A DNA stretch of 64,000 bases from Macrostomum lignano (Eukaryota). Of the stretch, positions 284-61,695 are shown piece by piece. How positions within the stretch are numbered: position 1 is the stretch's first letter; each line of letters begins with the position of its first letter. Under the pieces are notes generated by a model. It was not told the origin of the DNA. It made no database searches and saw only the letters and a program-made list of their open reading frames with translations. The DNA is taken from positions 76,493 to 140,492 of the forward strand of contig NIVC01001950.1 of assembly GCA_002269645.1 (NCBI GenBank). Reading direction: 5' to 3'. The translations under genes and the position numbers were made by a program.

Positions 284-22084
<21,801 letters not shown>

Positions 22085-25730: not shown

Positions 25731-25744
25731 GTTGTCATGGTAAC
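25731..25744. promoter_or_regulatory. RFX X-box-like motif upstream of the calmodulin-like gene
   Basis: GTTGTCATGGTAAC; second copy GTTGTCATGGCAAC at 26110-26123. Confidence 0.35.
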
Positions 25745-32000: not shown

Positions 32001-33015
32001 TTATTTATTAAATAGCTGTGCTAGAAAATTTCGACAACGTGCCGGTTTGGTAACAATCCTTCTGGATCTAGTCGTCTGTGTCGATTGAGGCAAGGAAATG
32101 GCGTCAATCTGTTCTTGTGGAGCGACAGCTTCCATCGTGGTCTCACTGTCAGGATCCTCGATGGCTTCTACCGGCATACCGGCTTCCCCCCTAACGGGAC
32201 TGCCTTCAGCCGGAGCTTGCTCCTCGGTGACATCTTCTGCCGCCTCCTCCAACAGATCGCCATTTTCATCGAACACAGCTCTGCCACTCTGTTTACCGTT
32301 CGAAACCTCGTGCAGATCACCTTCATCGATTACTGCCGCCTCTCCTTCCAAGGGCTCCATCGGCGGTGGTGGCACTGCAACTGGCAGGTCGGGAGTGGCA
32401 ACTGTGGTAACCTGCTGGGACTCATCCACAAGCGCTGATGACGCACTTTCTGATACCTGGAGCGGTTGAGTCGCAGCACTTTGATTGGAACCGTTGATGG
32501 AGCACGAAGACAACCAGGTAGACTGGTCGTCTCCTCGCAAGCCTACTCTTGACGACGGCATTCTGGCTGGCGTGCGAGTCCCGTACCTGTCCACAACATC
32601 TTCATAAGGCTGTTTGCGCACACAGCGCTTCATCCGATCGACATTGTACACATTGTGAGACGGGTTGGGAATGCACTCCAAAGGATTTATTCTAGCGAAT
32701 TCTGGAATGAGTCTGTAATTCCTCTCCGAAATGTTTTGCAACACCTTGTATGGTCCAAACCAGACAGCACTGTCGAGGCCACGATGGTCGGCGTTGAGGA
32801 CCCATACAAGATCGCCTATCTCGAAGTTAGAGTTCAGCGCGCTGCGGTCATAGTAGCGCTTTTGGCGCTCTTGGGCCTTTCCACGGGCATGGCGCGCAGC
32901 CGCTGATACCTCAACGAGCGTCTGGTGCAGATAATGTGCATACAGTTCAGGTCTGTACCTATCTTGAACTGGTGGATTATGAACCAGATCCAGTGGCAGA
33001 TTTAGCTCGTGTCCA
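32001..33015 (-). CDS. Frameshifted integrase C-terminus (GPY motif, acidic tail)
   Basis: GHELNLPLDL..QERQKRYYD..VWFGPYKVL..YNVDRMK..RSRRIVTKP. Confidence 0.8.
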
Positions 33016-36000: not shown

Positions 36001-37981
36001 TCGGGCTGACTCTATCCACTGACCTAGCTACAAAAAATTCTGAGTCTGTATTGAAAAGTTTAGAGGAGACTGTGCCACTCAGGTTTGGCACAGTGTCAAT
36101 CACTCGACTCGGCACTAGGGTTTCCGAGTGAGGTGGTAGCTCAGAGGTACAAGCAGCCAATACACGGCGTATGCGAAACACCCCCTTATCGCCCTCGATC
36201 ACAGGCACTGCTCCACCGGCCACGAGTACCTGGCCACAGGTGAAATCCAGCAGCACCTGGAAACCACGGAGGAAATCAATACCTAAGAGCGATTCAGCAG
36301 TGGATTCTTCGGTCACAAGGAAAACGTGATGCTTTTTAATCTTGCCTAGTTCAACTTCGCAGCGCAAAGAGCCTAAAATCTTGGTGGTGGACCCGTTGAA
36401 AGCCGTTGCCTTTGCGTCTTTGTGCGCTGGCGAAAAGATGTTGTTGATCGGATCGGCTTCAACCAGTCTCTCCATGGCTTGCTTCCCCATCACGCTGGCG
36501 TTTGCCCCCGAGTCAAGGCAAGCCATGACTTGGTTGTCCCCGATTCGCAACTGGACAAAGAAGCTGGAATCCACCGCAGGCTCATCGGAACTAGTTTGGC
36601 CTAAATGCGTCTGATTGATCGATGGAATTGGCCTTACCCCACAAGCCTGATCGCGCTTCTTGCCCGAGTCAATTTTCCGATGGAATTGGACTCTTGTGCC
36701 CACGAGTTGGTGCTGGTCAGCCGAACGGTTCAAGGATTCAGACAGCTCACCACGGTGAAAGAAGAGCTGGTCGGGAAGTTGTTCTGATTGAATGAACCCG
36801 AAGTTCCCCTTCCAGGAAACAATTGAACCAACCTCCGACATATGCTGGGCCTGATTATTTGGAGGATGACTCTTAGCAGCGGTCTGGTGGGCTTTTGGAG
36901 GTGATGGTGTGATGGGACAGTCGGCAATGAAATGGTCCTCACCACCGCACCTGTAGCATTTCCTTGATCTGGACACCGCTGTACCAAATTGCTGAGTTGC
37001 CCCGTGATTTGGCGGTTGTTTATTCTTGTGCTTGTTATGTGGCTTGTGTTGGTTTGAATTTTGGATTGACTTGTTAGATGGTTGTGGTTGGTTGACAGCA
37101 ACAGGCTTGGAAACTCCAGCCTGGTTCTGGAGTCGAAGGAGTCTCTCTAGCTCTTGTACTCTTGCCTCCAGAGACGCCTTCTCGGTTTCAAGGACACGGA
37201 TATTCGCAGAGGAGTTTGGAGCGGGTTGCAGAAGTTGCTGAATACCAACGATCTCCTTGGCCTTCTTAACCAACTCGGCAGACGGGACAGTCTTAGCCTT
37301 TGCCCCACTAGACTCATCACTCACCCCTGCATCACTGCTCCAAAGCAAGAGTTTTTCTGCGAGCACCTTATCCCGAATGCCATGGCACAGCCTCGCTCGT
37401 AATAAAGGTTCAGCTTCAGTAGATGAGAGGTCTGCTAACCGGGCATAAGATGCTAACCCATCCTAAAACTCGGCAATCGATTCGGTGCTGTTCTGGTGAG
37501 CGGCAACTAGTTCCATATAACTTTTCTCCCTAACGTTAGAGTCAGTGTAACGCGCTCTCATAGACTTCAGTGCCTCTTCACAGGTCTGGTCCGTGAGATT
37601 GTTATTTAGAAAGTACTCCTGGCATTCTGGTGCCAGAAGGGACAGCAGGACTGAAGTCTGTTGAAAGTGAGGAACCCTATGAGCTTCAATGTAGGCATTG
37701 AACTGAGCTTCCCAGGCATCAAACTTCGTGGTGCAAGTGAACAACGGTGGCGGCCGAAGCTTAATGCCTGTAGCTGTTTCCTTCTGTTGACTCTGGTAGA
37801 ACGATTGAGAACGGGACTCTCTTGAGAATTGATTTTCTAACAACCGGTGCAGTGCGGCAATGGTACTAGCAAGAAGTGGCTCTGAGTCTGTAGTGTTACT
37901 TGACACAAACTTTCTTTCCTGAGCAGAAGCGGCTGGATTTGGAGAGCCAGCAGTGGCACCCCTGTCCTCGCGGTCACTCAT
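33002..37981 (-). CDS. Gag-Pol polyprotein (capsid, CCHC, cold-shock domain, protease, RT, RNase H, integrase); in-frame TAG at 37463-37465
   Basis: CYRCGGEDHFIADC; CLDSGA; IDYRAVN, YLDDII; DSSLEGVGGVL; HRQLNHCG..CDVC; VDHAGP..SDNG..GKVER. Confidence 0.92.
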
Positions 37982-38319
37982 GATCGGCTCGGCAACGAAG
38001 AGAAGGCAGCAAGAAAGAGAGAGAAAGCGGAAAACGAGAGAAGAACAAAAGCAAAAGCACACAGTGTCTGGCAGGACCTAATGCCCAGCCTAAAGAATCT
38101 AAACTAAAATCACACAAACCAAATGCTAACCTGCCAGACAAGAGTCCTAAAAGACACACACAGAGGGATTCATACCGGTTTACGAAACGTGATTGCGGGC
38201 TTAGCTGGTATCGTCGCTCGGACAGTCGTAGATGGCCTCTGGCGGATGCAGACTGTGTCTCGGCCGATGTGCAGATCGCTCCGGCCGATGGAGATCGTCT
38301 TTGGGCCACTTGCAGATAG

Positions 38320-38550
38320 CAGATCGCCTCAGCTCACCGCTGATCGCCAGAAATCGTCGCAGGTCGCTGCAGATCACCGCAGATGGTCTCAGATCGCCGC
38401 AGATTGCTGCAGATCGCCGTAGATCGTTGCAGATCGCCGCAGATCGCCGCAGAACGTCGCAGATCGCCACAGATCGCCGCAGATCGTCGCAGATCGCCGC
38501 AGATCGTCGCAGATCGTCGCAGATCGTCGCAGAACGTTGCAGATCGCCAC
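38320..38550. repeat. 10-bp tandem repeat in the retrotransposon 5' leader
   Basis: (GCAGATCGCC/T)n. Confidence 0.85.
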
Positions 38551-41500
38551 AAATAACAACGAAAATAGGCAGATGGGTGATCTAAGACCTCCGAGGAGCC
38601 GTGCGGGTCGAGTTGAGTCTCGGTGGGACTTCCAAATTTATGTGACGAATAAAGGCAGGAAGACGTGCAGTTTGTGTAGCGATTAAATTTGATAATCTAG
38701 AGCCAGTAGCCGACTTCCCTTAGCGTAAATTGCAGATTCAGATTTGGTATGTTGAATTGAAGGTTAGGTTTTGATTGGTAGCTGCTTAATTTTAGTGCGA
38801 CTAAAGCAATTGAATGCGACGGCTAAGGGGCCCGCGAGAAGCGGAGCGAAAACTCAGGAGAGAAGGGGGAGAGCGGCGGCTGGCTGCAAGCGTATATTTA
38901 ATTGGTAAGGTAAACAGATAACAAACAACAGCGACCCTAATCCAAAACCCAGACAAACCCCCACGCGGCGCGCAATGTACATGTACAAATCAATCGATAA
39001 ATATATCATGCAAGAATAACATACGTCAGTACATGTACATAGGTAGAACTACCTTACGATAAATAATAACGATATGAATGAAATACAAATAATAGAATAA
39101 ATACATACGAGGCTACAAAAACAAATCAATTAACAGTAAAAATAGCGCGATAATAATACGTACGAATATTGTTAAAATAAATGGAAGAATACAGTAGTAG
39201 CACGGTATGCATATGAAAATAAAGAAATACGATACACGCGTTTCTACGAATCACACTGTCACAATATCTTAAAAGTTCTTATAGGGAAGATAACAAACTC
39301 ATTACGTTAGAAGCATATAAAAAATATTTTCCCAAAGGGACCCGTAGTATACACCGTATATACATACACGTATACTAAATTTTTGTTTGTTATATAAATT
39401 TTGTAAGCTGAATAATTGTTCATAATGAAAATGCATCATCATTGGATGGGGTCATAACAATGCTCATAACAGCCAGCCAATTTTATTCAACAATGAACTC
39501 TGCCTCTGCCTTCAATATTCGTAATTGCAGCTTCCATCCTGCATAAAAGTTCTTTTTTAACGGATGCTTAAAATTGATAAATCTTTAAAAAATTGCGATA
39601 AACAAAATTACGCTTAGAAAACTGACATCCTACTTTATCTTTTTTTGCACGACTTGCAGTATTAAAATAAAAAAAAACTAGCTTTACTAGCTATAAAGCT
39701 CTACCTTAACTTTTTTCTTAAAAAGTCGTTTCGTCTGACGGCAGACGAAATGACCACGCACCGGCCTATCGCCTAGATACCCTAAGGGCCTAACCCCTAA
39801 CCCAAAATAAGCCTATCTAAACTAGATAGATTACTAGATCTTACTTTTCAAGCTATCTAGAGGCTTTGAAAGAGTTCTAGTTTGTTTTATTGCTTTTAGT
39901 ACAAAAGAACAAATCAAAAGTTTTTATTAAACTTGTTCATTTCAATAAAAATAAAAGGCTAAAAAGGGTAAGTTTACACCTCATTAATTTACTTGTTTTT
40001 ATATATTTATAATTTTATTTCAATAAACATTAATACCATCATGGTATCAATGTTAAGTAGATATTATAAATCTTACATCATAATAAATATTCCATCAAAA
40101 GTATAGTCCAGACTTCAAGACTTTATTAGTGAGTTTTTGAAAGTTTTATAGTAGACCTAACTTTTTATTTTATTTAATAAAATAATATATCATTTTGACT
40201 CATTCACTAGAATACAAATGTAGGGGCCTAAAAGTTTTCAAAGTTGCTAATGAAAAATTCTACAATAATTCTATTGCTGTGACCAGGGCAGTTGTAAACA
40301 AGACTAAGTTATAGGCCTAATTATATCAAACTTGGCAATTTTTCTATTTTGGGTATTAAATCCTACCACTAGTGAGGTGGGGGTAAAGAAGTTTTCTTGG
40401 AAATTGGTTGGTTTTTTTTGAAATTTGCTGGCACCAGTGAGGTAGGGCAGATTCCTCGTTTGAATTACTGCCAACATTAGGTTCGCACAAATGAAGCTGG
40501 AAATCGCGCAGATGAATCACAACAAAATTTCTTCTCTTGTTTTACTCTGACAGCCAGGTTCTCGTAATCATAGCAGAGCGGTCATTAGCGGCGCAGTCAT
40601 TCAAAGCGATGAAACATTGGAGATTTCTGGCTTGATAAATTAATGCGTCAATTTGTTGAGCTAGTTACTTTTAGTAGGGTAGTTGCTGCCACCACTGTAA
40701 TTTACGTATTACGGAACGAATGAGTCTCAGAGCTTTCTTTGAGATAAGATCTTTGGTTATTATACGCCCTACAAGCAAATGACTCAAGAAATACTATGGG
40801 CGAAATCCAAAAACGTGGGACATATTTTTTCAGATTTCATTTTTTGCAAGTAAAAAACAAGTAAATGGCTAAGAATTATTGAAAATCTACCAAAGAATCA
40901 AGAAAGTATAATAAAAGCACAAATAAACTGTATATAAAGTGTGCTTGAAAGAAAAGATTTGTTAAAACTTTGAACTAAATAACGATTAAAATAGTGCTGA
41001 TAAAACAGTTAATAAAGCTTTTTTACTATAGTAAATAACCTTAAATAAGTTATTTGTATCAAGTTTTTATTAGCATGGTCACATTTTGCAAATAATTTAG
41101 GTGTATTTTGTTAATGTCATTGTTGCTCCTAACAACCTTTATAATTTGCGATTAAAAGTGGTTACTTCTTGGAGTCATTTACTAAATTGAACGCGTCATT
41201 TAATGTGTTAGGGAAAATTAAATTTACGTTATTAATACTTAGTAAACCTCTCTTTTCAGAGTATCAACTGTAAAGCAAGTTAGAAGAGTGCCATTGTAAG
41301 TTTAAAGTACAATTTTTACCTGGAATAACTTTATGAATTTAATTTGCAACATCTTTTTTTAATTTAACAATAATTAAAAATTCTCGAGATTTAAATTCAA
41401 TTATGCTTTTTCCTTTGCAGAGTGCTCCATGATACTGAATGCGATCAGTAATCCAAGTCTCAGATTTTAAGTCTTCCAGAACGATTATTTCGGCATATTG

Positions 41501-42891: not shown

Positions 42892-43108
42892 TCAGTCATC
42901 CCTCCTACAATCCTCGCAAAAGTACATGTCAGGTAGGTCGTTGTAGTCAAAACCAATACAGTAAAGGTGGAACCAGTCATCACATCCATCACAGGCAGTC
43001 ATTTCTATCTCTTGGCGCTCCGGTGGCAGGCTTGAGATGATGCAGTCTGGCGCCTTGCACTTGTTCCAGTCGCCGCCATGTCGTCCTTCATCCTGTTGTC
43101 TGCGGCCG

Positions 43109-43150
<42 letters not shown>

Positions 43151-45604
43151 GTTGGTGCTGTCCCGTCGGCCGCTTGCTGGATGGTCCTAGTTTGTGCCGG
43201 TGCCAATGGTACCCAGAGTAAAGCACCATGGCAGCTGCAGGTCTCGGTGGGATCAGAGCAGCAGCAAACTAGCTGCCTGTAGATGATCCCTGCCTGCGTC
43301 CGGCTCACGTGGTGCGTGTAGCGAATACCTTTCATGTCGAGCAGATTGGCAGCGCTGATGTATTCCATCCATGTGTCGATTTCCGCCGATGTCACTGTGA
43401 ACAGTTTGGTCTTCAGTTGTTTCTCCGCATTGAGCACTCGCAGCATGTCGTCTAGTGAAGCAACATCAGTTCCTGCTGCTGCAGCTGCGTCGCATTGTCG
43501 CTTGATGTTGCCGCCCACTCCGTCCGCGGCACCTTTGCCATGTCCAGCCTCCGTGTAGATCCATTGCCAGTCGCTGATGTTTCGCCTGCGCATAAGCTCA
43601 TCAAAGCCAAAGATATTCTTCTTGTTACGATATTGGCTGCTGGGCGAGTCCGAAATGATGCTGACTCGCCCGATGCCGGAAGCTGCGAAGTGGTCTAGGA
43701 CAAGGCTAAGATGTGCTGCTATGGCACCAGCAACCTGGAGATTCAGATAAAGATGCATTCCGGTTAAAATATTGGAAGTTGGGTCTATTTCTACAAGTTT
43801 TCCCTAACACTTCTTTCAGACAAAAATGTCTTACTTTGCGGTTGTCATCAGACAGCGATGCGAAGGACTTTGCGATCACTTTGGGGTTGCCTGGTACCCT
43901 CCAGTAGGCGACGCCTTGGTGGATGGTCACCTCACTGTGGCCACCAAAGTGTGCAGCTGTAACTTCAGTTCCGTACTTGAGTCTGTAGTTCTCGGAGAAG
44001 TCCACATGCAGGAGCAGGTGACCTGGCTTTAGAGACGCCTTCAGTTGTTCAATTGCTACATATTGATGACGAATTCGCATGTAGTGGCCAGCATAGTCAG
44101 AGAGGTCCTTGTCTAGCTTGGCGATGATCTCCTCCTTGGTGGCTGTTTTGTCGATCAGTTTCGTAGATTGGAACCTGGATTCCTGAACAATTTCCCAGGC
44201 CTTGTAGTGCACGGTTTCTAAAGCTGGTCCCTCTGGATTGATGGCAGTCTTGTTTTGGCAGCTTGTGCACTGTCTTTTAAAGCAAGCATGCTGTTCAGAG
44301 TTGGTACAGATGATTGTTTTCAGCAGCTTATGCTTGTCCTTAGACCTGACAAGCTTGACCGCATGCATGGCAGCGAGAAGCAGCTACAAACAAAATAGTG
44401 CAAATCAAGGTGCAAGTGCAATTTGGGCGTCGTGCAGTGTGCAGTGTGCTATAGACTTGTGAAATGGTGTTAGTTATTACAAACAACTAAAATTAGTAAA
44501 ATTACACAGTATTAGTATTTTACATACATCAAGGTTGGTGCATTGCTTGCAAAGACACTGGTCCCGGTCATCCAGCCGTGGCTTGACAATGTACCGCGGT
44601 TTCCACTTGTAGAAACTGCTTCTGCTCACTTTGCAATTCGGATGCTCCTTCTTGAACTTCTTGAAAAGGGCGTTCCGAGTGCGAAGGAGATACCTCTTCT
44701 GGTGATGGACTCCCTTGACGCAGATGGTCTCCTTCTTGGAAGCACTGGCGCGTGTGTTGTCATCTCGCTCGTAGAACTTGATGACCAGGGCTTCTTGTTG
44801 GCGCTCGACCCGATGCTTTTGTACCTTCTTCACAACCTTGTGGGTGCATTGGAGTTTCTTTAGGACCTTCTCTCGAATGTTGGCAGGTGCAGACTTGCAG
44901 ATCTTGGACACGGTGAGTCGGACGGCAGTCAGCTTCTTGTTGGACACCAGGGCATCGATGATGTGGTCGGTCGTTTCGACATCCTCAGCAGATGAAACCT
45001 GAAAACCTAAAACGGGGTAGGCGGATGATTTTTGTGCAGATTTAAGCTCCCTAATCTTTTTGCGAAGCCTCTCTGATTCAGCTCCAGCAGCCACCATCCG
45101 GTTCGTGAGCTTTGCTCGCTCTCTCTGAGTTGCAGCGGCAGACTTCAGGTTGGACTTGGTCACAACAGTACTGTCAGCAGTCTGGACGTCGGCCTCGGTC
45201 ATCACAGTACTGTCAGTCTGGACGTCGGCCTCGGTTGTCACAGTACTGTCAGCAGTCTGGACGTCGGCCTCGGTCATCACAGTACTGTCAGTCTGGACTT
45301 CGGTCTCAGTTGTCACAGCACTGTCAGCCTTTGAATCCACAGTACCTGCGTCCTCAGCGGTGATGGTGGCTGCTGCTGAATCACGGAGTTCCTGCTTCTT
45401 CTTGGCTCTTGACTTGGCCATGGCCTTCCGCTTTTGCTCACGACGAACACTCAGCTCTTCATCTGTTGCCGTGGCAAGCTGCTTCTGGTAGCGATTGCGG
45501 TCAGACTCACGTCGGCGCTCCTTGAAGGTGGGGTCCATGGCTTTCTGTTCCTGATATTGTTGAACAGAGCTGAGCTTCCTCTTGGAGCACTTGGTCTTCG
45601 TCAT
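42892..45604 (-). CDS. Spliced DDE transposase (exons 45604-44528, 44383-43835, 43734-42892; ~822 aa) with RG tract and C-terminal PHD finger
   Basis: CLCKQC, VDFSENY, ISDSPSSQYRNK, EAGHGKGAADGVGG; phase-0 GT-AG introns; C..C...CDGCDDWFHLYC..FCEDC. Confidence 0.82.
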
Positions 45605-46095: not shown

Positions 46096-46510
46096 GTATG
46101 GACCAGTCACTAAAGCAGGGTTGGGGGTTGCTATTATATAGCATATATACTGTGCTTTCCACTCACCATTGTCTTTATCTTTTATATCTAGTTATGTAAC
46201 AATTGTTGCCTTATTTTTAACCTGGGTTATTGATCTAATAAATGAAAAGAAGCTTTGTCAATTATCAGTCACATCTTTTGGGTATATTGCCAGTCTGCAA
46301 ATAGTGTTTTAATAATTTATTCATTAATCAATTCAACATTAGTGAATAGAATTGGCCATGATCTGCAAGTGTATCAAGGGATTCAGTTAGCTGTCCTAAA
46401 ATGCTAAACTAGTTTATAACAAAATGAAAAATACCAAAACTGCCTTACTAGTTGTTTGAAGTGTATTATACATAGAAATTATAAAAGTACACTTATTCAA
46501 CACCTTATTT

Positions 46511-47165
46511 GGAAGCCGGGTAACACATTAGAATTCCCATAAGGATTGGAAAATCGCGTTTTTCTCAGCTTCTACAATACCTATCAAGAAAATTCTTTTT
46601 TTCCTGCATACACGCCGCGATGATACACATTTAAGTGAAGTTTCACGATACCTGGTTGCTTAATAAGCTTACAGTAAGCGCTTACTTTGGAAGCCGGGTA
46701 ACACATTAGAATTCCCATAAGGATTGGAAAATCGCGTTTTTCTCAGCTTCTACAATACCTATCAAGAAAATTCTTTTTTTCCTGCATACACGCCGCGATG
46801 ATACACATTTAAGTGAAGTTTCACGATACCTGGTTGCTTAATAAGCTTACAGTAAGCGCTTACTTTGGAAGCCGGGTAACACATTAGAATTCCCATAAGG
46901 ATTGGAAAATCGCGTTTTTCTCAGCTTCTACAATACCTATTGAGAAAATTCTTTTTTTCCTGCATACACGCCGCGATGATACACATTTAAGTGAAGTTTC
47001 ACGATACCTGGTTGCTTAATAAGCTTACAGTAAGCGCTTACTTTGGAAGCCGGGTAACACATTAGAATTCCCATAAGGATTGGAAAATCGCGTTTTTCTC
47101 AGCTTCTACAATACCTATTGAGAAAATTCTTTTTTTCCTGCATACACGCCGCGATGATGCATATT
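46511..47165. repeat. 178-bp tandem array (~3.7 copies) inside the Sola-like element
   Basis: Units start at 46511, 46689, 46867, 47045; near-identical. Confidence 0.92.
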
Positions 47166-50362: not shown

Positions 50363-52390
50363 TTACATTTTTGATAGTACAGTTTCTAGGCGGTAGTCAA
50401 GTCCCAATTTGCTGGCCTCTGCCATGCGTTGATAAGCTTGGTAGAGCTGTTTAGAAGCATTTTTTGGAGCCGCCTCTGTTCCGCTGGCGAACTGCCACTG
50501 GTGTAGCCACGCGCTAGAAGGAGGCTCATCGAAAAATTGCACGTGAATTTTCTTCGAGCAGAAGCCCTTGGTGCAGTTTGTTCCGCGCCGGGGTAGGCAA
50601 ACCATCGCCGGCCACCAGTTTTCTCCATCTGTTGGCCAGTAACCTAGTACAAGCGATCCAGGTTGAATTTTCTGACGCTTGGCTGCACTATCGGCTGGAG
50701 CTCGAGCTGGCGGTCGCTTTCTAGCTAGGCGATATAATACTCATAATGATGTAAACTACATTCGTACATTGGTGCAAGGGTTCAAATGCGCAGCTTTAAT
50801 GACTGAACCTATGTTATATGCAGCTATTCGGTGTATTGAATTTAGTTTTTATTCAGGATTATTTAGTTGCTAAGGCATCCAATTTTACGCTTAAAATGTC
50901 ATTTTTGTCGTTTCAGAAGTCTTCTGTGACAATTATTTAGCAAATTTAGCAATTTTACCTGGTAAAATTGGCGCTGCACACCTTCGGTATGATTCTGGTG
51001 GTCAGCCATGAGCCGCTGTTCCTCCGCAGAGCAGTTTGACAGGCCCATGACTTCCAACCATTGCCGAAACTTTGAAACGGTAACGTTCCTGAGCAGAGTA
51101 GAATATCTTTCTCGATATTGATAGAAGTCTATCAAAATACCTGTAAGGAAACACGAGCGCCAGGTCATCGTCCTTTGGACGCTCAGCGAAGCGCTGGGCC
51201 AGCAGTTGCATGAGCAGGTCGCAGCAGGGTCGACGCTAGCCCAGGCCGACCCATGCTTGGCGTTGGACTTGTGACTTTGCACCTTTAACGGCTCGTTAGG
51301 TGCTTTGAGCCAGCGCCGGGCCTCAGAGATGAGGCAGGTCGAGGCTACGCCTTGGCGGTTGGCATTTCCATCACCAAAACAGATAACCATGCCAACGGCA
51401 AGGTATGTCACCGTCCTGTGCGGATGGAATTAGAGGTATTTATTTATTTAGAGGTAATTTTCTGAGCTGTCTCAGATTTCTGTAATTTCTGAGCTAATAA
51501 AATTTGCAATGCCATTCTGAATACCAGCGCCATATTTATCCTTGTGCCATTTTTAATGCCAGTGCCATTTTGACTCCCAGTGCCATATTGAATGCCAGTG
51601 CCATTTTGAATCCCAGTGCCATATTTATCCTAGTGCCATTTTAAATGCCAGCGCCATATTTATCCTAGTGCCATTTTGAATGCCAGCGCCATATTTATCC
51701 TAGTGCCATTTTGAATCCCAGTGCCATATTGAATGCCAGTGTCATTTTGAATCCCAGTGCCATATTGAATGCCAGTGTCATTTTGAATGCTAGGATATTT
51801 ATCCTAGTGCCATTTTGAATGCCAGCGCCATACTTATCCTAGTGCCATTTTGAATGCCAGTGTCATATTAAGCGCGATAAAACTTTTATAACTCGACATA
51901 AAAAGCATTGGGAAAAATTTAACTTACCTGTTCTTGGTTGATCTCCCTTCTGCCAGCACAGCGTCTTTTATCTGAAAGACTGCTGTAATCTGCTCGCCCT
52001 TGAGCAGCTCTTCCTCTCGGCGGTCAACAAGCTTCACGTAATATTCGGCCTTCGGCCCCATTGAACTTGCAGTCCAATTTTTTTGTGGACTGCCTGTTAG
52101 AGGTCAGCTGTTGGTGCATCCCACCGTCTACGATCTGCTGGAAACGGCGGGTAATTAAAAAATTACCGACTTTTTCAAGCGCAAACACGGTTTGTTTTAG
52201 AATCGAGTAGGACAAACTGTCCAAGTACTCGCTGATTTTATCGCGCAGATCTTCGCTTATCAGCTGATTGAAGCTCGTGATGTCTAGACGCTGCATTAGG
52301 CGTTTTAAGTAGCAGCGTGATAAACAAAAAAATCGTTGGGTACGCATGGAAATTTTGCCTTCGTCGCGGGTCTTGGTAGGCGGTATTTTT
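50363..52390 (-). pseudogene. Decayed spliced tyrosine-recombinase gene with downstream PWWP domain
   Basis: YR-like motifs NANRQG, VQSHKS..GSA, TVSKFRQ, MADHQNHTEGVQRQFY at 50960-51416 (two frameshifts); PWWP PGSLVLGY..WWPAMV..IHVQFFDEPPSSAWL at 50363-50690; upstream exon 51929-52390. Confidence 0.65.
51530..51870. repeat. Degenerate ~19-20-bp minisatellite in the YR intron
   Basis: GTGCCATTTTGAATGCCA variants. Confidence 0.8.
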
Positions 52391-52414
52391 TCTACTTTAG
52401 AGAATCTTTTGAAT

Positions 52415-52807
52415 TTATGCAGGTGTACTACAGTAGGTCGTTATTATAGCTGTTGCTAGTTCCTTGGCCGTCATACTGTCCATGATCTCCTTTGTAAGTT
52501 GGATCTTTGGTAATGTTGTTCCGGCGTAAATTTCCTTAGATATTGGCGCTGCACAAGTTATGCAATGCTTATAGTCGCGGCACCGAATTTTTAGGGCACA
52601 ATCTCGGCAGACCCAGTGCCCGTTGGCGCACATCCGTTGTTGCGGTGTTGTATTGCATACCTGGCACAGGGTAGGTGGTGCGCGGCATAGCGGGCATTTG
52701 TCTATTCTATCCGTTGTGCAGCAGTTATAGCAGAACTTATGCCCATGCTGACAGTAGACATACTGTTCAGCGTCTTCATAACAAACAATGCACTCGTCGC
52801 TATCCAT
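52415..52807 (-). CDS. Double RING-finger (C3HC4) protein, 130 aa
   Basis: CIVC..CQHGHKFCYNC..CPLC and CQVC..CANGHWVCRDC..CITC. Confidence 0.75.
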   Translation of the reverse strand: MDSDECIVCYEDAEQYVYCQHGHKFCYNCCTTDRIDKCPLCRAPPTLCQVCNTTPQQRMCANGHWVCRDCALKIRCRDYKHCITCAAPISKEIYAGTTLPKIQLTKEIMDSMTAKELATAIITTYCSTPA

Positions 52808-52880
52808 GTCTGAAAAATGGTCAATGTGATAAGTAATATCTGTGCAAGAATGGTTGCAATATCTGTGGGTGCATGGTATT

Positions 52881-53531
52881 TTAATCAATTTCTAAAGCGG
52901 AACTATTATAGTCATATGATTCTTGGGGTGGTAATATATAAGACAAGTCCTCATTATGCAGAATGAGTGCAGGTAGAGTTGTACAGAGGATGAGGCATGG
53001 GTGAAAATTCATATCGTTAACAATTTTAAACAGCTTATGTTCAATTTCTTGTGGAGATAATTGCCGGAGTCTAGAACCGTAGGAAGAGGAATAGCGAACG
53101 AGGTATTTACGTGTTTTATGAGCAACACGTGGTATGGGCCATGATCTGAGGCGGATAATTTTAGCATGTGTTGAAAAAAGAGCATAAGTGAACGGGTGAA
53201 GCTGTAGGTTATAGTCTGCTTGAATGCATGCAAGTGTGTTGTTAACTTTAGGTAAATGGGTGGCATCGCATATAGGACACTGACAAATGGAGCGATAAGC
53301 AAGCTTCTTAATACATTGTGTGCACATAAAATGTTGATTTAAGCAATATTGTTCAGTGCGCCAGGAGTTGCATATCATGCATTGACGGAGATTACCTCGA
53401 CACATATGGCAATTTTTTAAAGGTTTTTTGTAATGTGCAAGGCTTAAGCAAGAACCACACACCTGGTGTCTATTGACACATATACAAGGTAGTTTACATT
53501 AAAATTCTCCGAGACAGATAGGACAATCCAT
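52881..53531 (-). pseudogene. Paralogous double RING-finger ORF with one in-frame TAA at codon 11
   Basis: MDCPICLGEF*..CVNRHQVCGSC..CHMC and CMIC..CLNQHFMCTQC..CPIC. Confidence 0.7.
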
Positions 53532-53662
53532 TGTCGTGTTTGTCGAAGTTGTGTGAGTGTTTGTAGGAAAACAAGGATTTAGTCGCCTCTTACGACAAGC
53601 TTGAGGAAGCTGTAGTGCTATTCTTTATCCCGGTCACTACACGGGGACATGAAGCGAATAAT

Positions 53663-54725
53663 TTAACGAGATCTTAGGTTGTACGTATGACCGGCAGGTG
53701 GTGCGTTTGTTGTTTGTGTTTCGGCGTGTGCAGTGGCAATGCGTTTATTTGTTGTTTTTGTGTGGTCTGGATTTTGTAGGTCTGGGAGGAATGTAGTGTC
53801 GTTAGTGATACGTTTTAGACGTTGAATGTGAACATAGAACTGAGTTTGATGTGGATCCTGGATATTAGCGAGGCGTGCCGTTGTTGCCGATACCAATGCC
53901 GTTACTCGGAATGGTCCTTTGTATTTAAGTGCGTGTTTATGCGTATGTTGCGCAGGGTAATGTAGGTAAACGATGTCTCCGACTTGTAGAGTAGATGTAT
54001 GATTGCTGGTGGTGACTACTGCCTGTTGATTTTCTAAATTGTGTTTCGCGATTTGCCATGCCAGGTGTGGCTGCGAAGTAAACTTTTGTAGTGTTGTTGG
54101 CGTTTCCACGTACTGAGAAGGTAATAGTTTTTGAACTAGTAGGCTTGGTGGCTGAAAGTCTCGAGAGAACATAAGCAAAAACGGTGTGTTCTCTGTTGAA
54201 CGGTGTACGGCACTGTTGTAGGCCATTGTCACTGACTGCAGGTATATGATCCAATCTTCAGGTTGCTTATAGACGAAATGTGTCAACATTTCGTGTAGAT
54301 TTCTATGGAATCGTTCTACGAGGTTAGCTTTTGGATTGTAGGTGGAGGTGAAAATTTGTTGGATATTTAGTAGTTTAGCAGCCTGTTGGAATAGTTGCGA
54401 CGTAAATTGTGTACCATTGTCGGAGGTTAGTGTCTTTGGAGTTCCGTATTTGCAGATAATTTCATTGTAGAAGGCCATTGCAACTGTAGTGGCTGTAATG
54501 TCAGGCAGTGGAATGGCAACAGAAAATTTAGAGAACACGTCTAATGCGGTAAGAATGTAAGTGTAATCGATAGCATGTTGTCGAGCTGGCGGTAGTGGTC
54601 CAGTAATATCAAGTGATACAATGTCTCATGTGGTTGTCTTTGGTACGGATTGAAGTTCTGGTTTTTGTCTTCCAGTCTTTGTTGAAGCACATGAGTGGCA
54701 TTGTAGGCAGTACTTGCGCAACACT
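53663..54725 (-). mobile_element. Ty3/gypsy integrase fragment (5' truncated; one TGA)
   Basis: YCLQCHSC, SLDITGPLP, TSDNGTQF, ANLVERFH, KYKGPFRV, HIQRLK, HTYNLRSR*. Confidence 0.88.
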
Positions 54726-55352
54726 GCATTGGAATCGCAGGAGGCGGTGGTGGTGGCGGCGGCGGCGGCATCATCTTGGCTGCACCATTATCCACAGCGG
54801 CTAGACGAGACGATTGGCGCACATTTACCGACTGGTAATGCTAAGCTTGCCGATTGAAATGTAATCGAGCTGTCGCTCGCGGTTCCACACCAACTGGGCC
54901 TAAGTAAATTCCTTCGAGATTCGAACCAGCGTCCATGTCCTGGTACACAGATCTCAATGCCAAGCAGTCTAGCTGCTGCTGAAGTTACGTGGTCAGAAAT
55001 ATATTCGCCTTTTCGTTTGGTCTTTTCAGCAAATCGCACCACTCTGCTTCGGAAATGCCAGTGTCGTTCTCTGCGCTGTCGATCCAATTCTCCAGCTCAA
55101 CTGCCAGCGTTTGTCGAAGATTATCTGCGTTCATTTCCAAAGCTGTGCCTTGCAATTGATCCTAGCCGAAAAGAAGCAGTTTCCATCACATGAGATGCGC
55201 TTCAACCAGCAGACCGACAAAGGCACCCATTGTGGGGCACGGCCAACTTGTAGCGTCGCCAGACTCCCTCTGTCCTCTGCGTCATCTTCCAGAGTCGCGA
55301 CACCTTTGAAGTTAAAAGACGTGCACTTTTTTAATTTTCCAAAAAAACCCAC
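54726..55352 (-). pseudogene. Degenerate OTU deubiquitinase-like domain followed by poly-Pro
   Basis: SCDGNCFFSA (55190-55160), DQLQG..LRQTL, AAARLL, HYQSV (54840-54826) across several frameshifts. Confidence 0.55.
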
Positions 55353-56729
55353 ACAATCAGCAAAAAGTCCTCTAACGAGATTGGTTCAAAAATGACGCCG
55401 TAAATGTTGATGAAAAAATATTCCTTAAAACGTCAGTCAAACCAAATAAAGGACAACAATGCTACATTGACAAAATAGTATCACTATAGTATCACTTGTA
55501 GATTCTATATCAGCATTCTTTAAATTTTAAAATCTTGATTAAAAAAACTATGCCACCAATAAAAGACAATAAACTAAGGCAGGGCTTACCGTCAGTGTGG
55601 CAAAAACCTGCTTCTCCGAGTGCAGCAGCAGCTTCGTCCAATTCAGCTTGTTGTCTTGTTAATTCATCTGTAGTAGACACAAAAACAGGAATTGGGCAGT
55701 CTGAAGCACATTAGGGCGATTATACGAAGTTATTAGCTTATGTCTCAAGCATATAGTTTGCAATAGCATTCTAAACTTTATCATCCATGTTTTATGAAAT
55801 CTGAATCTACCTATTCAAGTTCCATAAAAACCTATTTCTCTGTGAAAATTGGCAATGGCAAGGAGTAACACACCACAAGTTTCGTCACACAATCCACACT
55901 CCTGCAGGGCAGCAGCAGCATTGCGCAATTCATAGTCTACAGTCGCATCTTCTTTAACAACATTATCACAACCACCAGAAGCAGCAGCAGCAACCACGAA
56001 ATTCTTTACTTCCGACGTAACAGTAGTGACAGTAGGAGTGTTTGTTTCGGCATCGGAAGCAGCAATGGCAGGCTTCTTTTTAGACTCGAATGGACGCCCG
56101 AAGGTAACGTGCTTAGCCTTCTTCCAGGTCTTTTCGGCGCCATACTCCTTAATAATTGTTGAAAGTGTTAAAGTTAAAAATTACTAATTCATTTTTATTA
56201 ACTACATTTTCCTCTTGAATGTAAAAACCTAAATTTTGAATCTAATTTGCATTTTTCATTGCATAAAAATCCCTGAAAATTTCAAAATTCCAAAAATTTT
56301 GCAACAAAAATATTTAATTCTAACAGTAATATAATTTAATATGTTAATTACAATAGCTCTTACAGCTACTTACATACTCCTAGTGCATATAGTCACAGAC
56401 AAAGTTTCATAGCTTGTGTATTTAGAAAATATATATTATAAATTATTAAAGCTATAAAAATGTAGACATTGTCTTTTCAGTTCAAATTAAATGGAAAGCA
56501 AACTATTTGTTATTTTTGACAACAAACAACTATCAAGTGGAAGTAGCCTACAGCAGAAATTTCATGATGCCTACCACTGATTGCCTATTCAATTTGGAAC
56601 CAAATTATCACATTAGACATAATTGTAGGCATATGTATAGACATAAGCAGTACATATGCACATATTGCTTGGAGATGTGGAGGTCAGAACACCTGCTTTT
56701 GGTGTTCTTTTGAGTCGAAAAAACGAAGT

Positions 56730-57870: not shown

Positions 57871-58294
57871 TTAAAGAAATTTCAATGCAAATTCGCCTGT
57901 TACAAGGGTGATTTCATTGTCTAGTAAAATATTCTTAGGTTCGTTTGCAGTTTTATTGATGCATACATAAAACAACTGGTAGGTGGGATAAGACTTTATA
58001 GTCTAATAGTTTCCGATAGTTACTTTCACGACTTGAGGAATTGTCTGTGTTATCAGAAGATTTAAGCTCTAATGCAATCTTTCGCTCAACGTGAACCAGG
58101 TCAATATTTTTTACCTTTTCGAATCCAAAATATTTTTCTGCTAAAACTTCATATAATCTACCTAGTCTCATTTGAATAACTTTAATCTTGTGTGAAATTA
58201 TTAGCTCTTCTTGAAATAAATCGCAAAGAATTTGGTCATACCCCACCTTGTCGTCAATTGGTTTTAAGAGAATTTCTCGAATTTTTTGCTCCAT
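57871..58294 (-). pseudogene. PD-(D/E)xK type II restriction-endonuclease-like ORF (one frameshift near 57985)
   Basis: AAAAATG start; QMRLGRLYE..IDL..IALELKSSDNTDNSSSRESNYRKL; the shifted frame gives YPTYQLFYVCIN..ITLVTGEFALKFL. Confidence 0.6.
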
Positions 58295-58752
58295 TTTTAC
58301 TTTAAAAAAATTTAACAAGTGCTTATCGATCGCCCCGAAGGGACGCGAGCTCTGCTCGATGACTAGCAAGGACATTGACTTTCCTCACTCAGGCCACAAG
58401 GTAACCTGCAAAAGAATACCCTGGAATATGAAATTCTCCAGGATATTTTCCAGTAGAGTAGATGGGTGGCAGTTTTGTCATAGCTGACTGAATCTCTAAT
58501 GCAGAACCAAGAAATAGTGGTTTATTGAAGGCCATTTTATTGAGATTTTTTTATTTCTTTATTTTTACTTGTAAAGTGTTTGTATACATTCCATTGAATA
58601 CTTAATAGACTGAATTTTAAGACAAGTCGAGACAATAATCCAAAGCGACATGTTACACAAAACAGATCGCTGATAAAAGATCTTGGTATATTTTAAAAGA
58701 AACTTATAAGACGATGTATAACAATCCTTAGTCACAGTCACAATGACAATCC

Positions 58753-59130
58753 TTAGTCACAGTCCTTACAGTCCTCCTTAGTCACAGTCACAGTGATAGT
58801 CCTTAGTAACTCATGTTGAGCAGCTTGGTATTGAGCAGCTTGGTGTTGAGCAGCTTGGTGTTGAGCAGCTTGGTGTTGAGCAGCTTGGTGTTGAGCAGCT
58901 TGGTCTTGAGCAGCTTGGTGTTGAGCATCCTTGTATGTTGGAGGTGCCTCTGGAACGTCTACATCTAGCGAGCGCTCGATTTCTAGTTGGCGTTGATTTT
59001 CAAAGATAGAACGCTTCTTCGCAATGGTTTTTTTAATTAGCCTAAGCATCGCTATGTCGTTCTCAATTTTTTCGAAGTGTACGCGATAATGCTCAAGGAA
59101 TTGATTCTCATTTGTAGACGTGATGAAGCT
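58753..59130 (-). CDS. Orphan ORF/exon with PPTY motif and QAAQH repeats
   Basis: Open frame, 15-bp coding repeat at 58810-58930. Confidence 0.4.
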   Translation of the reverse strand, partial: SFITSTNENQFLEHYRVHFEKIENDIAMLRLIKKTIAKKRSIFENQRQLEIERSLDVDVPEAPPTYKDAQHQAAQDQAAQHQAAQHQAAQHQAAQHQAAQYQAAQHELLRTITVTVTKEDCKDCD

Positions 59131-59406
59131 AGTATTGGGGTATTGTGTGAATCAAACCTCTCAAATTGTTTCTCTCTTGTGTGCTCACAAGTATTCTAGC
59201 ACGCCTAGTTGGATTTCCGGGCATTCTGTTCGTTCGGAATGAAAGCTGATAATTTAAGCAGAGGACACTTGTTGTGGATACTTTATTTTGGGTATGCCCT
59301 TAAATGCTGTCTAAAATGTCTTATGCCAGCCGCTAATTGGTTGCCACTGCCCTGCCACTGCCTTGCCACTGCCCTGTGGCAGTGACAGATTTTTTCTCTC
59401 TAGAGT

Positions 59407-59510
59407 GAGTAGTAGTGTGCTATACGGGGCTGAGTCATCCAGCGAGCTGGCGCGCAATGCGCCCGAGCAATAAGTGTGGCATAGCCCCGTATAACACACT
59501 ACTACTACTC
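59407..59510. mobile_element. ~100-bp hairpin / mini-MITE
   Basis: 25-bp inverted repeat GAGTAGTAGTGTG(C/T)TATACGGGGCT. Confidence 0.5.
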
Positions 59511-59851
59511 ATCTTCTACACTTGAAAATAGGGGGAAGTCTCGAGATTGCACTTTAAATATCTATTGAATTGCCAAAATAAAGTTTTTCTAAAAGCCATT
59601 TTTACTATGATATTTTTGTAAAAAATTATTGTGCCAAGGAGCTAATTAAAAGAGAAAAATGAAGACAAAAGTAATTTTTTCAATCTAAAGATAATAACTT
59701 GGCTCAGTTTGAGCTTTGTTAATCATAAATGTGTATTTCTTCGTAAATATGTTTTGTATACTACTTTGAGTAGCAGCGAAAGCAGTAAAATCATTTTTTC
59801 ATGTTGAGTCATTTTTTCTGGATCTCCAGAAATTTTTCTGGACATTTTTTA

Positions 59852-60750
59852 TCATAAGGAATTCTTCCTCTTTACAGTTATATTTGCGCTCTCCTTAAAT
59901 CTCCTTAAATCTGTGTGTAGCAGCAATTTAACCAGCAAGGTTTCGTCGAGTGTTTCGCGGCGGAGTCGAAGCGGTCCGAGTTGTCTTACGCGATGTAGCA
60001 GTCGTTTAAGCGCGAATCGAACGCTCGTTTTCTCCCTCGAATCGTATGTTGAGTGAAACTTCAAGGCTACACGCTCGTCACGCAAGTTCTCGTCTTCTGT
60101 CGCCGTTTTCTGAATAAGAGCCTTGTAGGTTAGCAGTGTTTCAAAGTTGTAACCTGAAACCACCAGAACTGGATATTTGACAATTAGATTTTGAAAAGTA
60201 TAGAGTCTTTCTTCGAACTTTTCGTCGATTTGCAGTTTAGCAGCAACGCCTTTGATGATCAAGCCAAGGGATTCGCGTAGCTTGGCAGCAACTTCCGCTT
60301 GCTTCTTTCTACCTAGACAGGCTAAAATTTCTAGATCGGCAATGAATTTTCCAGCTTAGTAAATCGATCGATTAGTTGGCCTTCATCCTGACTAAGTTCC
60401 TCTCCACATAGATCCTTCGCATCATTGAAACTGAAATAAAATATGTTGTTTTCTCATTGAAAAGTTATTGACTTCGTGATAAGATTCTGTAATAAAACTT
60501 ACTGAGTTTTGACGACAATTGCCTCGTTTTTTACATTGTCAAGCTTTTCCTTCAAGCGAGCAATAAATCGAGATTCTCTTAGAAACTTTGCCTCTTTGTT
60601 GTTGCTTTTCTCTCTGGTGCGATCTTTCTTCGAGGACTGGCTTTATATTACTTGTAGATTTTTAGTAGTTAGTTCTGTTCATCAACATCCAACTTACTAA
60701 CTACAACGGCGGAACTATTTGAGTCTTTGCTGCTAGTACTCTTAATAGTG
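59852..60750 (-). pseudogene. Degenerate spliced gene of unknown function
   Basis: Charged helical ORF 59852-60262 extended upstream by frameshifted segments and a CAG|GTAAGT donor. Confidence 0.35.
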
Positions 60751-61344
60751 GCGATTATCTGACTATGGATAGAAGAGGAGGTCATCGCATGTATTTCTGT
60801 TCTTTGGCAGGGGGTTGGGGGTAAAATAGCTACTCAGTTGCGGCAAGGTGCTCATATTGGTCACATATTGCTCATATATTTTTTCATGACAATGGAAAGA
60901 ATTCATGCATTCCTTTGGCGAGCCCAAAACGTGAGAAAAATTTTTCGAAAATAAAAAATGCCCTAGCGTTTTGGTTTGAATAGAAAGCGTGACTCACTTT
61001 GCCGTGGGTGGATGGCACTAGAGAACCCTGAATTCCTGTGTTAGTCATCAGACTGTGTTCTGTGACCCTTGGGGGTGATCGAGTGAAGTTGTAATTGCTA
61101 TAGCGGACCATATTGTTGCCATGCAAACTTGTTTGTGTGTGGCGCGAATAGAGCCCCGAATTCCTGTGTTACTCATCAGACTGTCTGAGACCCTTCGGAG
61201 CAATTAAGTGAAGTTTGCCTACTCTGCCGAAGAACCACTCTGGGTCATAATATATACAAAGAGGTCAAGCAAGTTTCAAACTATTCAAAAAATAGTTTGT
61301 TACTTTAAAAATAAAAACTATACGGCTAAATTTTTCCTAGAAAA

Positions 61345-61695
61345 ATGGAAGCTAATTACCCAAATGTTCGAAATGCTCTACCACAAAAATTCTATGATTC
61401 TATTATATCATTTTCTCAAATTAAAACCCATACTCGAAATTCTCGACCAATTGCAGAAATTGATAAAGCTTACGATGAATATAAAGCAGAAATATTAAAA
61501 CACACCATTGTACATGTCCCCCATATTTGTATTCAATATTCATTCAGAGTATATCTTGCACATGTTGATAAATGGGCTTTGATTTCGAGACAGCACATTA
61601 GGAATGACGAATTTTTCGTCATGCTGAAGTTAAACATTTTCAAACTCCCCATAGCCTTTAAGAAGTACATTGAAACCGAAAAATCATATTGTTAA
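61345..61695 (+). CDS. Orphan intronless ORF, 116 aa
   Basis: AAAAATG start, AT-rich, protein-like composition; no family recognised. Confidence 0.35.
   Translation: MEANYPNVRNALPQKFYDSIISFSQIKTHTRNSRPIAEIDKAYDEYKAEILKHTIVHVPHICIQYSFRVYLAHVDKWALISRQHIRNDEFFVMLKLNIFKLPIAFKKYIETEKSYC

What the first reader, a model, noticed from the sequence alone, without database searches (positions are those of the whole stretch)
52415..54725. Retroelement integrase followed by two paralogous double-RING ORFs in the env position
Seen: 130 bp after the integrase stop, with no LTR or PPT between and the same A/C-rich coding-strand composition, come two tandem ORFs. Each starts MD(x)C-x2-C and has two C3HC4 RING-like modules with a C-x-(N/H)-x-H core. 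Established: RING fingers are E3 ubiquitin-ligase modules widely used by DNA viruses against host restriction factors. Inference: an LTR lineage carrying its own E3 ligases as accessory anti-defence genes. The alternative is that they belong to the flanking element.
Basis: partly seen in the sequence, partly recalled or inferred. Interest (0 to 1): 0.8.

Follow-up and report, generated by a model that had tools for sequence, protein, structure and literature searches.

The report
Flatworm retroelement fragment with double-RING genes
A broken piece of a virus-like jumping gene from a flatworm is followed by two small related genes that look like ubiquitin ligases, which the element may carry to manipulate host proteins, but no intact copy could be examined to prove they belong to it.

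Summary
The anatomy is real, with corrections. On the minus strand a 5'-truncated Ty3/Gypsy integrase (54721-53663, one in-frame stop) is followed after 131 nt by ORF A (216 codons, stop at codon 11) and after 73 nt by ORF B (130 aa, open but short at its C-terminus). Each has two SIAH/TRAF-type RING modules; they are 29% identical. The integrase is 70-72% identical to Macrostomum lignano polyproteins in which a gB-like envelope lies upstream of protease, so the RING ORFs are extra 3' genes, not env replacements. They belong to a tiny, fast-evolving family (one M. lignano gene model with a tandem pair, two unnamed clusters). Linkage to the element is likely but unproven: no LTR, PPT or second copy is in the window; the G-poor strand bias covers integrase and ORF A but fades in ORF B; the one published M. 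lignano env element leaves about 681 nt before its 3' LTR, too little for both. A splice acceptor matching the host trans-splicing motif sits 2 nt before ORF B. Best reading: dead fragment of a GAG-ENV-POL element with accessory E3-ligase genes. Precedent: planarian Burro1 (BIR+RING). New variant of a known kind.

The parts
53663..54721 (-). 5'-truncated Ty3/Gypsy integrase: end of the H2C2 finger, DDE core, GPF motif, C-terminal tail; one in-frame stop at 54628-54626
   Evidence: Pfam rve E 1.8e-16; tblastn 249 of 355 identical to P0022 residues 1561-1914, match starts at 54721; composition change point at 54717
53532..53662 (-). 131-nt spacer, G-poor like the integrase; no LTR or purine tract; a weak YTNCAG acceptor candidate ends at 53610
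52881..53531 (-). ORF A: double RING plus helical C-terminal domain, 216 codons, in-frame stop at codon 11 (53501-53499)
   Evidence: profile of relatives E 1.3e-20; model pLDDT 74.5
53397..53525 (-). ORF A RING 1 (residues 3-45), ends C-x2-C-R
53268..53381 (-). ORF A RING 2 (residues 51-88)
52932..53195 (-). ORF A C-terminal helical bundle (about residues 113-200) with the family R-x-W-P motif; no distinctive fold match
   Evidence: best Z 5.4, common helical arrangement
52808..52880 (-). 73-nt spacer: ATTAAA overlapping the ORF A stop (52885-52880), pyrimidine tract and TTTCAG acceptor ending at 52810, 2 nt before the ORF B ATG; one other ATG at 52874
   Evidence: host trans-splice motif from PMC8629364
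52415..52807 (-). ORF B: open 130-aa double-RING paralogue lacking most of the family's C-terminal domain
52682..52792 (-). ORF B RING 1 (residues 6-42), ends C-P-x-C-R
52553..52666 (-). ORF B RING 2 (residues 48-85)
54726..55310 (-). Upstream flank, not retroviral: frameshifted exon-like sequence with a DGNC motif (OTU-like, unconfirmed) and a poly-proline run
   Evidence: no tblastn match to the polyprotein; no Pfam hit in three frames; ubiquitin thioesterase hit only E 1.9
50363..52414 (-). Downstream flank: frameshifted exon-like sequence ending at a donor at 51927, further acceptors at 51141 and 51089, and a PWWP domain at 50363-50740
   Evidence: Pfam PWWP E 1e-6

Best explanation
This is a dead internal fragment of a Macrostomum-type, envelope-carrying Ty3/Gypsy element (GAG-ENV-POL order), lying inside an unrelated broken spliced gene. 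The parent element carried, behind pol, a small cassette of intronless accessory genes of a fast-evolving double-RING family. Proposed working in an intact element: the long element RNA is cut into separate mRNAs at splice acceptors, for ORF B probably by the host's spliced-leader trans-splicing; RING 1 binds and activates a ubiquitin-loaded E2; RING 2 is a structural or dimer-like partner; the variable helical C-terminal domain picks the host substrate, most likely a protein that limits the element (silencing, RNA sensing or apoptosis). SHOWN: integrase identity, env upstream in relatives, RING folds, paralogy, breaks, acceptor motif. INFERRED: linkage to the element (about 0.75 for ORF A, 0.6 for both), ligase activity (about 0.7 if intact), trans-splicing (about 0.35), anti-defence target (about 0.3).
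For: Integrase 72% identical over 100% of the query to M. lignano ALD16272.1; the other 12 of 13 hits are at most 36%. Cluster member PAA64473.1 (1914 aa) has hydrophobic segments near residues 33-54 and 631-658, an RRRR site at 364 and a Monjiviricetes_fusion match (E 5.7e-5, 21.7 bits, below the cut-off of 27) ahead of PR-RT-RH-IN. ORFs are on the integrase strand, intronless, 131 and 73 nt apart. G/(G+C) is 0.33 in the integrase and 0.37 over spacer+ORF A+spacer; 42 of 1262 strand windows of 900 nt are that G-poor, and they lie only here and in simple-repeat bins at 0-4 kb and 17 kb. Third-position G is avoided in both (0.11 and 0.06 at fourfold sites). The family is tiny and divergent: 9 hits at E<=0.001 among 1.84 billion representatives, of which 3 share the full pattern (P0024, P0026, P0031); a profile search of the 5.8 billion set returned only P0026 and P0031; members are 26-33% identical apart from the two units of P0024 at 65%. 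P0024 (M. lignano A0A1I8G201) also holds a tandem pair. This fits mobile accessory genes better than a conserved host gene. Arg follows the last Cys of RING 1 in 6 of 6 units and of RING 2 in 0 of 6; its role as the E2~ubiquitin 'linchpin' is recalled, not from a call. A YTNCAG within 2 nt of an ATG occurs at 8 of 1894 ATGs of the window; [T/C]TNCAG is the top trans-splice acceptor motif and about 100 nt the modal operon spacing in M. lignano (PMC8629364). Precedent for ubiquitin and apoptosis domains in a flatworm env-carrying Gypsy: Burro (PMC6431247; PMC13465017).
Against: One copy only; no LTR, PPT or target-site duplication (longest shared word across the junctions 7 nt). A change point falls at 52811, just before ORF B, whose composition groups with the downstream flank (gain 28.1 in context; 9.0 within the fragment against a null mean of 5.0, maximum 11.9 in 30 shuffles). 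Fourfold codon usage of ORF A differs from the integrase (p 0.0008; A+B p 0.026), while unrelated ORFs such as the PWWP exon do not (p 0.71). A smaller change point lies at the integrase end (53672, gain 10.0). For the published Mlig_errantivirus_2 the POL stop lies about 681 nt before the 3' LTR match (my arithmetic from its supplement and methods), less than the 1248 nt needed here; that it is the same family as P0022 is only inferred (its contig size is not among the 8 listed). None of the 15 polyproteins scanned, nor P0022, carries a RING, and P0024 has no integrase. ORF B is closer to P0024 (33%) than to ORF A (29% over 91 aa), and the tree is unresolved (0 of 4 branches starred). YTNCAG also fits ordinary cis acceptors.
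Confidence: 0.58

Rival explanations
1. The RING pair belongs to the flanking gene or to another mobile element (a DNA transposon or Polinton/giant-virus-like insert with OTU-like, RING and PWWP cargo), and the integrase fragment landed next to it by chance.
For: Flanks are on the same strand and carry chromatin/ubiquitin-flavoured motifs (PWWP E 1e-6; DGNC motif). ORF B has an acceptor and flank-like composition. Atlas look-alikes are mostly Nucleocytoviricota and Preplasmiviricota RING proteins (0.87 for ORF B, 0.91 for P0031). P0024 shows no retroelement domain.
Against: The G-poor strand bias runs without a break from integrase through ORF A and stops sharply at the 5' break. The flanks are spliced and frameshifted, whereas the RING ORFs are intronless, start with their own ATG and have no frameshift. 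The OTU reading is not significant (E 1.9). Atlas and fold hits to viral RINGs are generic (no Foldseek match at E<=0.001).
Confidence: 0.22
2. Only ORF A is part of the element (one accessory gene filling the gap between pol and the LTR); ORF B was added later or separately, so the locus is a chimera.
For: Change point at 52811; ORF B third-position G 0.22 against 0.06 in ORF A; spacer plus ORF A is 782 nt, near the 681 nt gap of Mlig_errantivirus_2; ORF B is closer to P0024 than to ORF A.
Against: Two members of a family with only three other known clusters sit 73 nt apart, and P0024 is also tandem; the change point is within the null range when only the fragment is tested.
Confidence: 0.15
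3. The ORFs are element genes but not ligases: zinc-binding scaffolds, as in arenavirus Z, or dominant-negative decoys that soak up host E2s or RING partners.
For: RING 2 aligns as well with arenavirus Z proteins (Z 4.8, 5i72) and lacks the Arg after its last Cys in 6 of 6 units; ORF A RING 1 lacks the Pro of C-P-x-C; the fold shows no function.
Against: RING 1 keeps the Arg in 6 of 6 units; the family profile's best PDB matches are TRIM21, TRIM5 and SIAH1 E3 RINGs (E 5e-7 to 2e-5; the top hit is partly due to a fused ubiquitin).
Confidence: 0.2

Closest known systems
GAG-ENV-POL Ty3/gypsy elements with HSV/gB-type env of Platyhelminthes, e.g. Mlig_errantivirus_2 (Chary and Hayashi, PMC13524379)
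   Same: Integrase 70-72% identical to M. lignano env-pol polyproteins with a gB-like region before protease; flatworm elements have this order.
   Different: No gag, env, PR, RT or LTR in this copy. The paper's main text has no word starting with 'RING' or 'accessory'. The gap from POL stop to 3' LTR in the published element (about 681 nt) cannot hold both ORFs.
Burro/GYPSM1 giant Gypsy elements of planarians, Burro1 B-IAP (PMC6431247; Lee et al. 2026 Dev Cell as cited in PMC13465017)
   Same: Flatworm Gypsy with env between gag and pol and with ubiquitination/apoptosis domains, including a RING within a BIR+RING region reported to protect stem cells.
   Different: Burro's domains lie mostly inside a polyprotein of about 4900 aa upstream of pol. 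Here: separate short ORFs downstream of integrase, two RINGs per protein, no BIR, TRAF or BCL2 match.
SIAH/Sina- and TRAF-type C3HC4 RING E3 ligases
   Same: C-x3-H spacing, Sina_RING matches below cut-off, fold match to SIAH1 RING (Z 4.4, rmsd 2.4, 44 aligned).
   Different: Two RINGs in tandem, no Sina zinc fingers or substrate-binding domain; a small helical bundle instead.
RING E3 proteins of large DNA viruses (herpesvirus ICP0, NCLDV RING proteins)
   Same: Short intronless RING genes in a mobile genome; listed among fold and Atlas look-alikes.
   Different: No match at E<=0.001; similarity is confined to the RING fold.
Extra ORF3 genes of bdelloid rotifer LTR retrotransposons (PMC5408684)
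   Same: Accessory ORFs in LTR elements beyond gag and pol.
   Different: Term search found no RING, zinc finger or ubiquitin in that paper.

Membership tests
Ty3/Gypsy (Metaviridae) LTR retrotransposon | Gypsy-type integrase with H2C2 finger, DDE core and GPY/F motif | tested here: met
   rve E 1.8e-16; D, D, E and GPF aligned to P0022; finger truncated
Ty3/Gypsy (Metaviridae) LTR retrotransposon | PR-RT-RH-IN order | tested here: inconclusive
   Absent from this copy; present in the 70-72% identical relatives
Ty3/Gypsy (Metaviridae) LTR retrotransposon | Paired LTRs, PBS, PPT, target-site duplication | tested here: not met
   None around the fragment; this copy is a fragment, not an intact element
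GAG-ENV-POL gB-type errantiviruses of flatworms | gB-like env upstream of pol | tested here: inconclusive
   Seen in relative P0022 (fusion family E 5.7e-5 below cut-off, two hydrophobic segments); that region is missing from the window
GAG-ENV-POL gB-type errantiviruses of flatworms | Placement in their RT/IN clade | not tested
   The published sequences are on GitHub and the Mlig ENV is not among the Rhabditophora rows shown from the supplement
Canonical GAG-POL-ENV errantivirus | Membrane-anchored env ORF after pol | tested here: not met
   The ORFs after pol are zinc-finger proteins with no env family match
C3HC4 RING domain (SIAH/TRAF type) | Eight zinc ligands with cross-brace spacing | tested here: met
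   16 invariant Cys/His in 6 of 6 aligned rows; 4 of 4 modules in the window
C3HC4 RING domain (SIAH/TRAF type) | RING fold | tested here: met
   Both ORF B modules align with solved RINGs, Z 4-5, rmsd 1.9-3.1 over 44-49 residues; middling Z is normal for domains this small, no Foldseek hit at E<=0.001
RING E3 ubiquitin ligase | E2 binding and ubiquitin transfer | not testable with these tools
   Only motif evidence: Arg after the last Cys in RING 1 of 6 of 6 units
IAP / Burro1 B-IAP | BIR domain with RING | tested here: not met
   No BIR match in ORF A, ORF B, P0024, P0026, P0031, P0033
RBR (RING-between-RING) ligases | RING1-IBR-RING2 with an IBR between | tested here: not met
   The two RINGs are 5 residues apart with no third zinc module
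Accessory gene of an LTR element | Lies between paired LTRs in several independent copies | not testable with these tools
   No eukaryotic genome collection; protein searches give no context
SL trans-spliced operon gene | Acceptor near the start codon and short intergenic distance | tested here: met
   TTTCAG 2 nt before ORF B ATG, 73-nt spacer (PMC8629364)
SL trans-spliced operon gene | Spliced-leader reads joined at that acceptor | not testable with these tools

The most novel reading that the evidence does not exclude
A lineage of envelope-carrying flatworm Ty3/Gypsy elements encodes its own stand-alone double-RING E3 ligases as a 3' operon that is resolved into separate mRNAs by the host's spliced-leader trans-splicing, and uses them to destroy host silencing or antiviral proteins: an ICP0-like strategy in a retrotransposon, without borrowing host cullin ligases as lentiviruses do.
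Probability: 0.15. Interest if true: 0.82.

Novelty: new variant of a known kind. Interest (0 to 1): 0.5.

Why it matters
Invertebrate LTR elements are rarely shown to carry dedicated counter-defence enzymes. If intact copies hold these ORFs, Macrostomum (RNAi and transgenesis available, piRNAs active in somatic stem cells per PMC4604429 abstract) would let one find the substrate of an element-encoded E3 and so identify host restriction factors for retroelements in a spiralian. It would also be a second, independent capture of RING genes by flatworm env-carrying Gypsy elements after Burro1, and possibly an LTR element that uses trans-splicing to express downstream genes. The double-RING plus helical-bundle family itself has no Pfam model. 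The value is limited because this copy is dead, a RING in a flatworm LTR element has a precedent, and linkage rests on one locus.

Tried and rejected
1. Word-index homologue search with ORF B (71-228 aa): no candidate. 2. Exact look-up of six window ORFs: 0 of 6 in the collection, so accession adjacency could not test linkage. 3. My recollection that Cer1 CERV is a RING protein was wrong: it has a Cys loop and forms ring-shaped multimers (PMC10309623). 4. PMC4604429 does not describe the polyprotein ALD16272. 5. Supplements of PMC12801592 hold sequences of six heat-responsive families only, none followed up. 6. A frameshifted continuation of ORF B: suspected by eye, not supported by the profile search over 2481 stop-to-stop segments. 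7. OTU domain upstream: no Pfam hit in three frames, PDB E 1.9; left as unconfirmed. 8. Six of the 9 phmmer hits (P0025, P0027, P0029 repeats; P0030, P0032 single RINGs; P0028 triple RING) were dropped from the family; P0028 was kept in the tree only. 9. Tree of 7 units unresolved. 10. ORF A C-terminal bundle: best Z 5.4 (ATP synthase delta), not above background. 11. Viral fold library: nothing at E<=0.001. 12. Scan of prokaryotic genomes with alignment A2 did not run for lack of a conserved stretch. 13. No RING-E2 complex prediction was obtained. 14. Lee et al. 2026 is not held. 15. Literature searches (listings only) showed no paper on double-RING ORFs downstream of a Gypsy integrase; subscription journals, Repbase and Dfam were not searched, viral and metagenome contigs stayed unchecked, and bioRxiv supplements could not be seen.
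Full report
Setting. The window is repeat-rich eukaryotic DNA with several transposon remnants. The best relatives of both parts of the finding are from the flatworm Macrostomum lignano, so the host is very probably a Macrostomum; none of six window ORFs tested is in the protein collection letter for letter, and I did not determine the species.

Observation. On the minus strand an integrase frame ends at 53663. ORF A starts 131 nt later (53531-52881) and ORF B 73 nt after that (52807-52415). The integrase matches Pfam rve (E 1.8e-16). Each ORF has two modules with eight zinc ligands and a C-x3-H core; the pattern is found nowhere else in the window and arose in 0 and 1 of 20000 shuffles. ORF B matches zf-C3HC4_3 above cut-off, and both halves of its model align with solved RINGs. 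The ORFs share 26 of 91 residues (E 1e-7). No LTR, clear purine tract or target-site duplication was found on either side. Some breaks could be assembly errors; I could not test that.

The element. Of 13 longer relatives at E<=1e-10, the top one is M. lignano ALD16272.1 at 72%; the rest are at most 36%. Its cluster has 10 members, all M. lignano. The longest, PAA64473.1, has two hydrophobic segments, an RRRR site and a weak Monjiviricetes fusion-protein match (E 5.7e-5, below cut-off) ahead of PR-RT-RH-IN in one frame. Chary and Hayashi report that flatworm env-carrying Ty3/gypsy elements have a gB-type env in GAG-ENV-POL order (PMC13524379, section 5 part 1) and list one M. lignano element with 16 copies (supplement row). 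So the envelope of this lineage sits before pol, and the RING ORFs are not env substitutes. From their coordinates and methods I calculate about 681 nt from POL stop to the 3' LTR match. That would nearly hold a gene like ORF A but not both; the 5' LTR touches the contig end, so the true gap may be shorter. That this element is the PAA64473 family is inferred from host, env type and length, not shown.

The RING family. A phmmer search of 1.84 billion representatives gave 9 hits; 3 share the architecture: M. lignano A0A1I8G201 (P0024, a gene model with two tandem units) and two unnamed Logan proteins of 208 and 214 aa. A profile search of the 5.8 billion set added nothing. A profile built from these relatives alone finds ORF B (E 4.6e-25) and ORF A (E 1.3e-20) and nothing else below E 0.09. 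Sixteen Cys/His and two Arg are invariant. Full-length members continue into a helical domain with an R-x-W-P motif, which folds as a small bundle without a distinctive match. Pairwise identities are 26-33%, except 65% between the P0024 units, so tandem pairs probably arose more than once; the tree is unresolved. A small, divergent, intronless family looks more like cargo of mobile elements than like a conserved host gene; this is inference, and the databases may simply lack small ORFs.

Do the ORFs belong to the element? For: same strand, short spacers, and a G-poor coding strand running from the 5' break through ORF A, found elsewhere in the window only in simple repeats (42 of 1262 windows). 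Against: change points at 52811 (gain 28.1 in context, 9.0 within the fragment, null maximum 11.9 of 30) and 53672 (gain 10.0); ORF B looks like the downstream flank; ORF A's fourfold codon usage differs from the integrase's (p 0.0008) while some unrelated ORFs' does not; no polyprotein scanned has a RING. The flanks are a frameshifted, spliced gene with a PWWP domain downstream and an unconfirmed OTU-like motif upstream. I put linkage at about 0.75 for ORF A and 0.6 for both.

Mechanism. Expression: ATTAAA overlaps the ORF A stop and a TTTCAG acceptor ends 2 nt before the ORF B ATG; such a placement occurs at 8 of 1894 ATGs. In M. lignano [T/C]TNCAG is the top trans-splice acceptor motif, 30% of genes are trans-spliced and operon spacing peaks near 100 nt (PMC8629364, passages). 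The candidate before ORF A is weak (chance about 0.1). Cis-splicing fits equally. Activity: RING 1 ends in C-x2-C-R in 6 of 6 units and RING 2 in 0 of 6. From recalled knowledge of RING ligases that Arg stabilises the closed E2~ubiquitin state, so RING 1 is the likely catalytic module, RING 2 a partner and the helical domain the substrate adaptor. The family profile's best PDB hits are TRIM21, TRIM5 and SIAH1 RINGs. The target is unknown; a silencing, RNA-sensing or apoptosis factor is my guess by analogy. A non-ligase scaffold role, as in arenavirus Z, remains possible.

Comparison with what is known. Planarian Burro elements also have env between gag and pol and carry BIR, MATH/TRAF, BCL2-like and ubiquitin-like domains (PMC6431247, passages); Burro1 is reported to have a RING+BIR region that protects stem cells (PMC13465017, passages, citing Lee et al. 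2026, which I could not read). A RING in a flatworm LTR element is therefore not new. BIR-less double-RING ORFs behind integrase did not appear in my ten library searches (listings only). Other papers seen: PMC12801592 (first sixth of the text, passages, supplements 1 and part of 5), PMC4604429 (abstract start and passages), PMC10309623 (abstract and passages), PMC5408684 (term search), PMC13524379 (abstract, sections 5 part 1, 14, 15, 22, 23, passages and supplement rows). Its sequences are on GitHub and could not be read; they bear directly on linkage.

Verdict. A real and unusual arrangement in a dead fragment; probably an accessory E3-like cassette of an env-carrying flatworm Gypsy lineage; linkage and activity unproven. 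New variant of a known kind, interest 0.5.

Noticed in passing
window 30935-39263 (-): Near-complete Gypsy element with an LTR-like pair (30935-31083 and 39115-39263, 149 nt, 96.6%) and a cold-shock domain match (PF00313, E 1.4e-4, below cut-off) between zinc knuckle and protease.
   Followed up: no
window 7192-15381: Perfect 34-nt inverted repeats enclosing a Transposase_21-like ORF (10162-12873) and an ORF with a weak CIDE-N match (8068-9792): probably a CACTA-type transposon.
   Followed up: no
window 57953-61695: Cluster of short intronless ORFs, one with an RE_Eco47II match (E 9.5e-5, below cut-off), and an imperfect hairpin at 59408-59506; possibly a viral or Polinton-like island.
   Followed up: no
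window 42892-45604 (-): Transposase-like ORFs ending in a PHD finger (E 5.2e-7).
   Followed up: no
window 50363-56180 (-): Broken spliced gene around the fragment: exon 55667-55590, DGNC motif, poly-proline, weak SAM match, PWWP domain.
   Followed up: partly
window 46508-47163 and 51497-51870: A 178-nt tandem repeat and a 17/18-nt tandem repeat.
   Followed up: no
P0024 (UniRef A0A1I8G201): The gene model repeats the same C-terminal segment three times, suggesting it is stitched from several tandem copies of a double-RING unit.
   Followed up: partly
PMC13524379 supplement rows 1446-1453: No LTRs were listed for 8 of 9 flatworm env elements, including ones with 45 and 215 copies; long 3' or 5' accessory regions beyond the 3-kb search flank are one possible reason.
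   Followed up: no
window 4889-6381 (-), 18455-20440 (+), 23807-24220 (-), 25735-26436 (-): A second Gypsy gag/pol remnant, a C-type-lectin-like ORF, a calmodulin-like exon and an NHL-repeat ORF (lectin and calmodulin recognised by eye).
   Followed up: no
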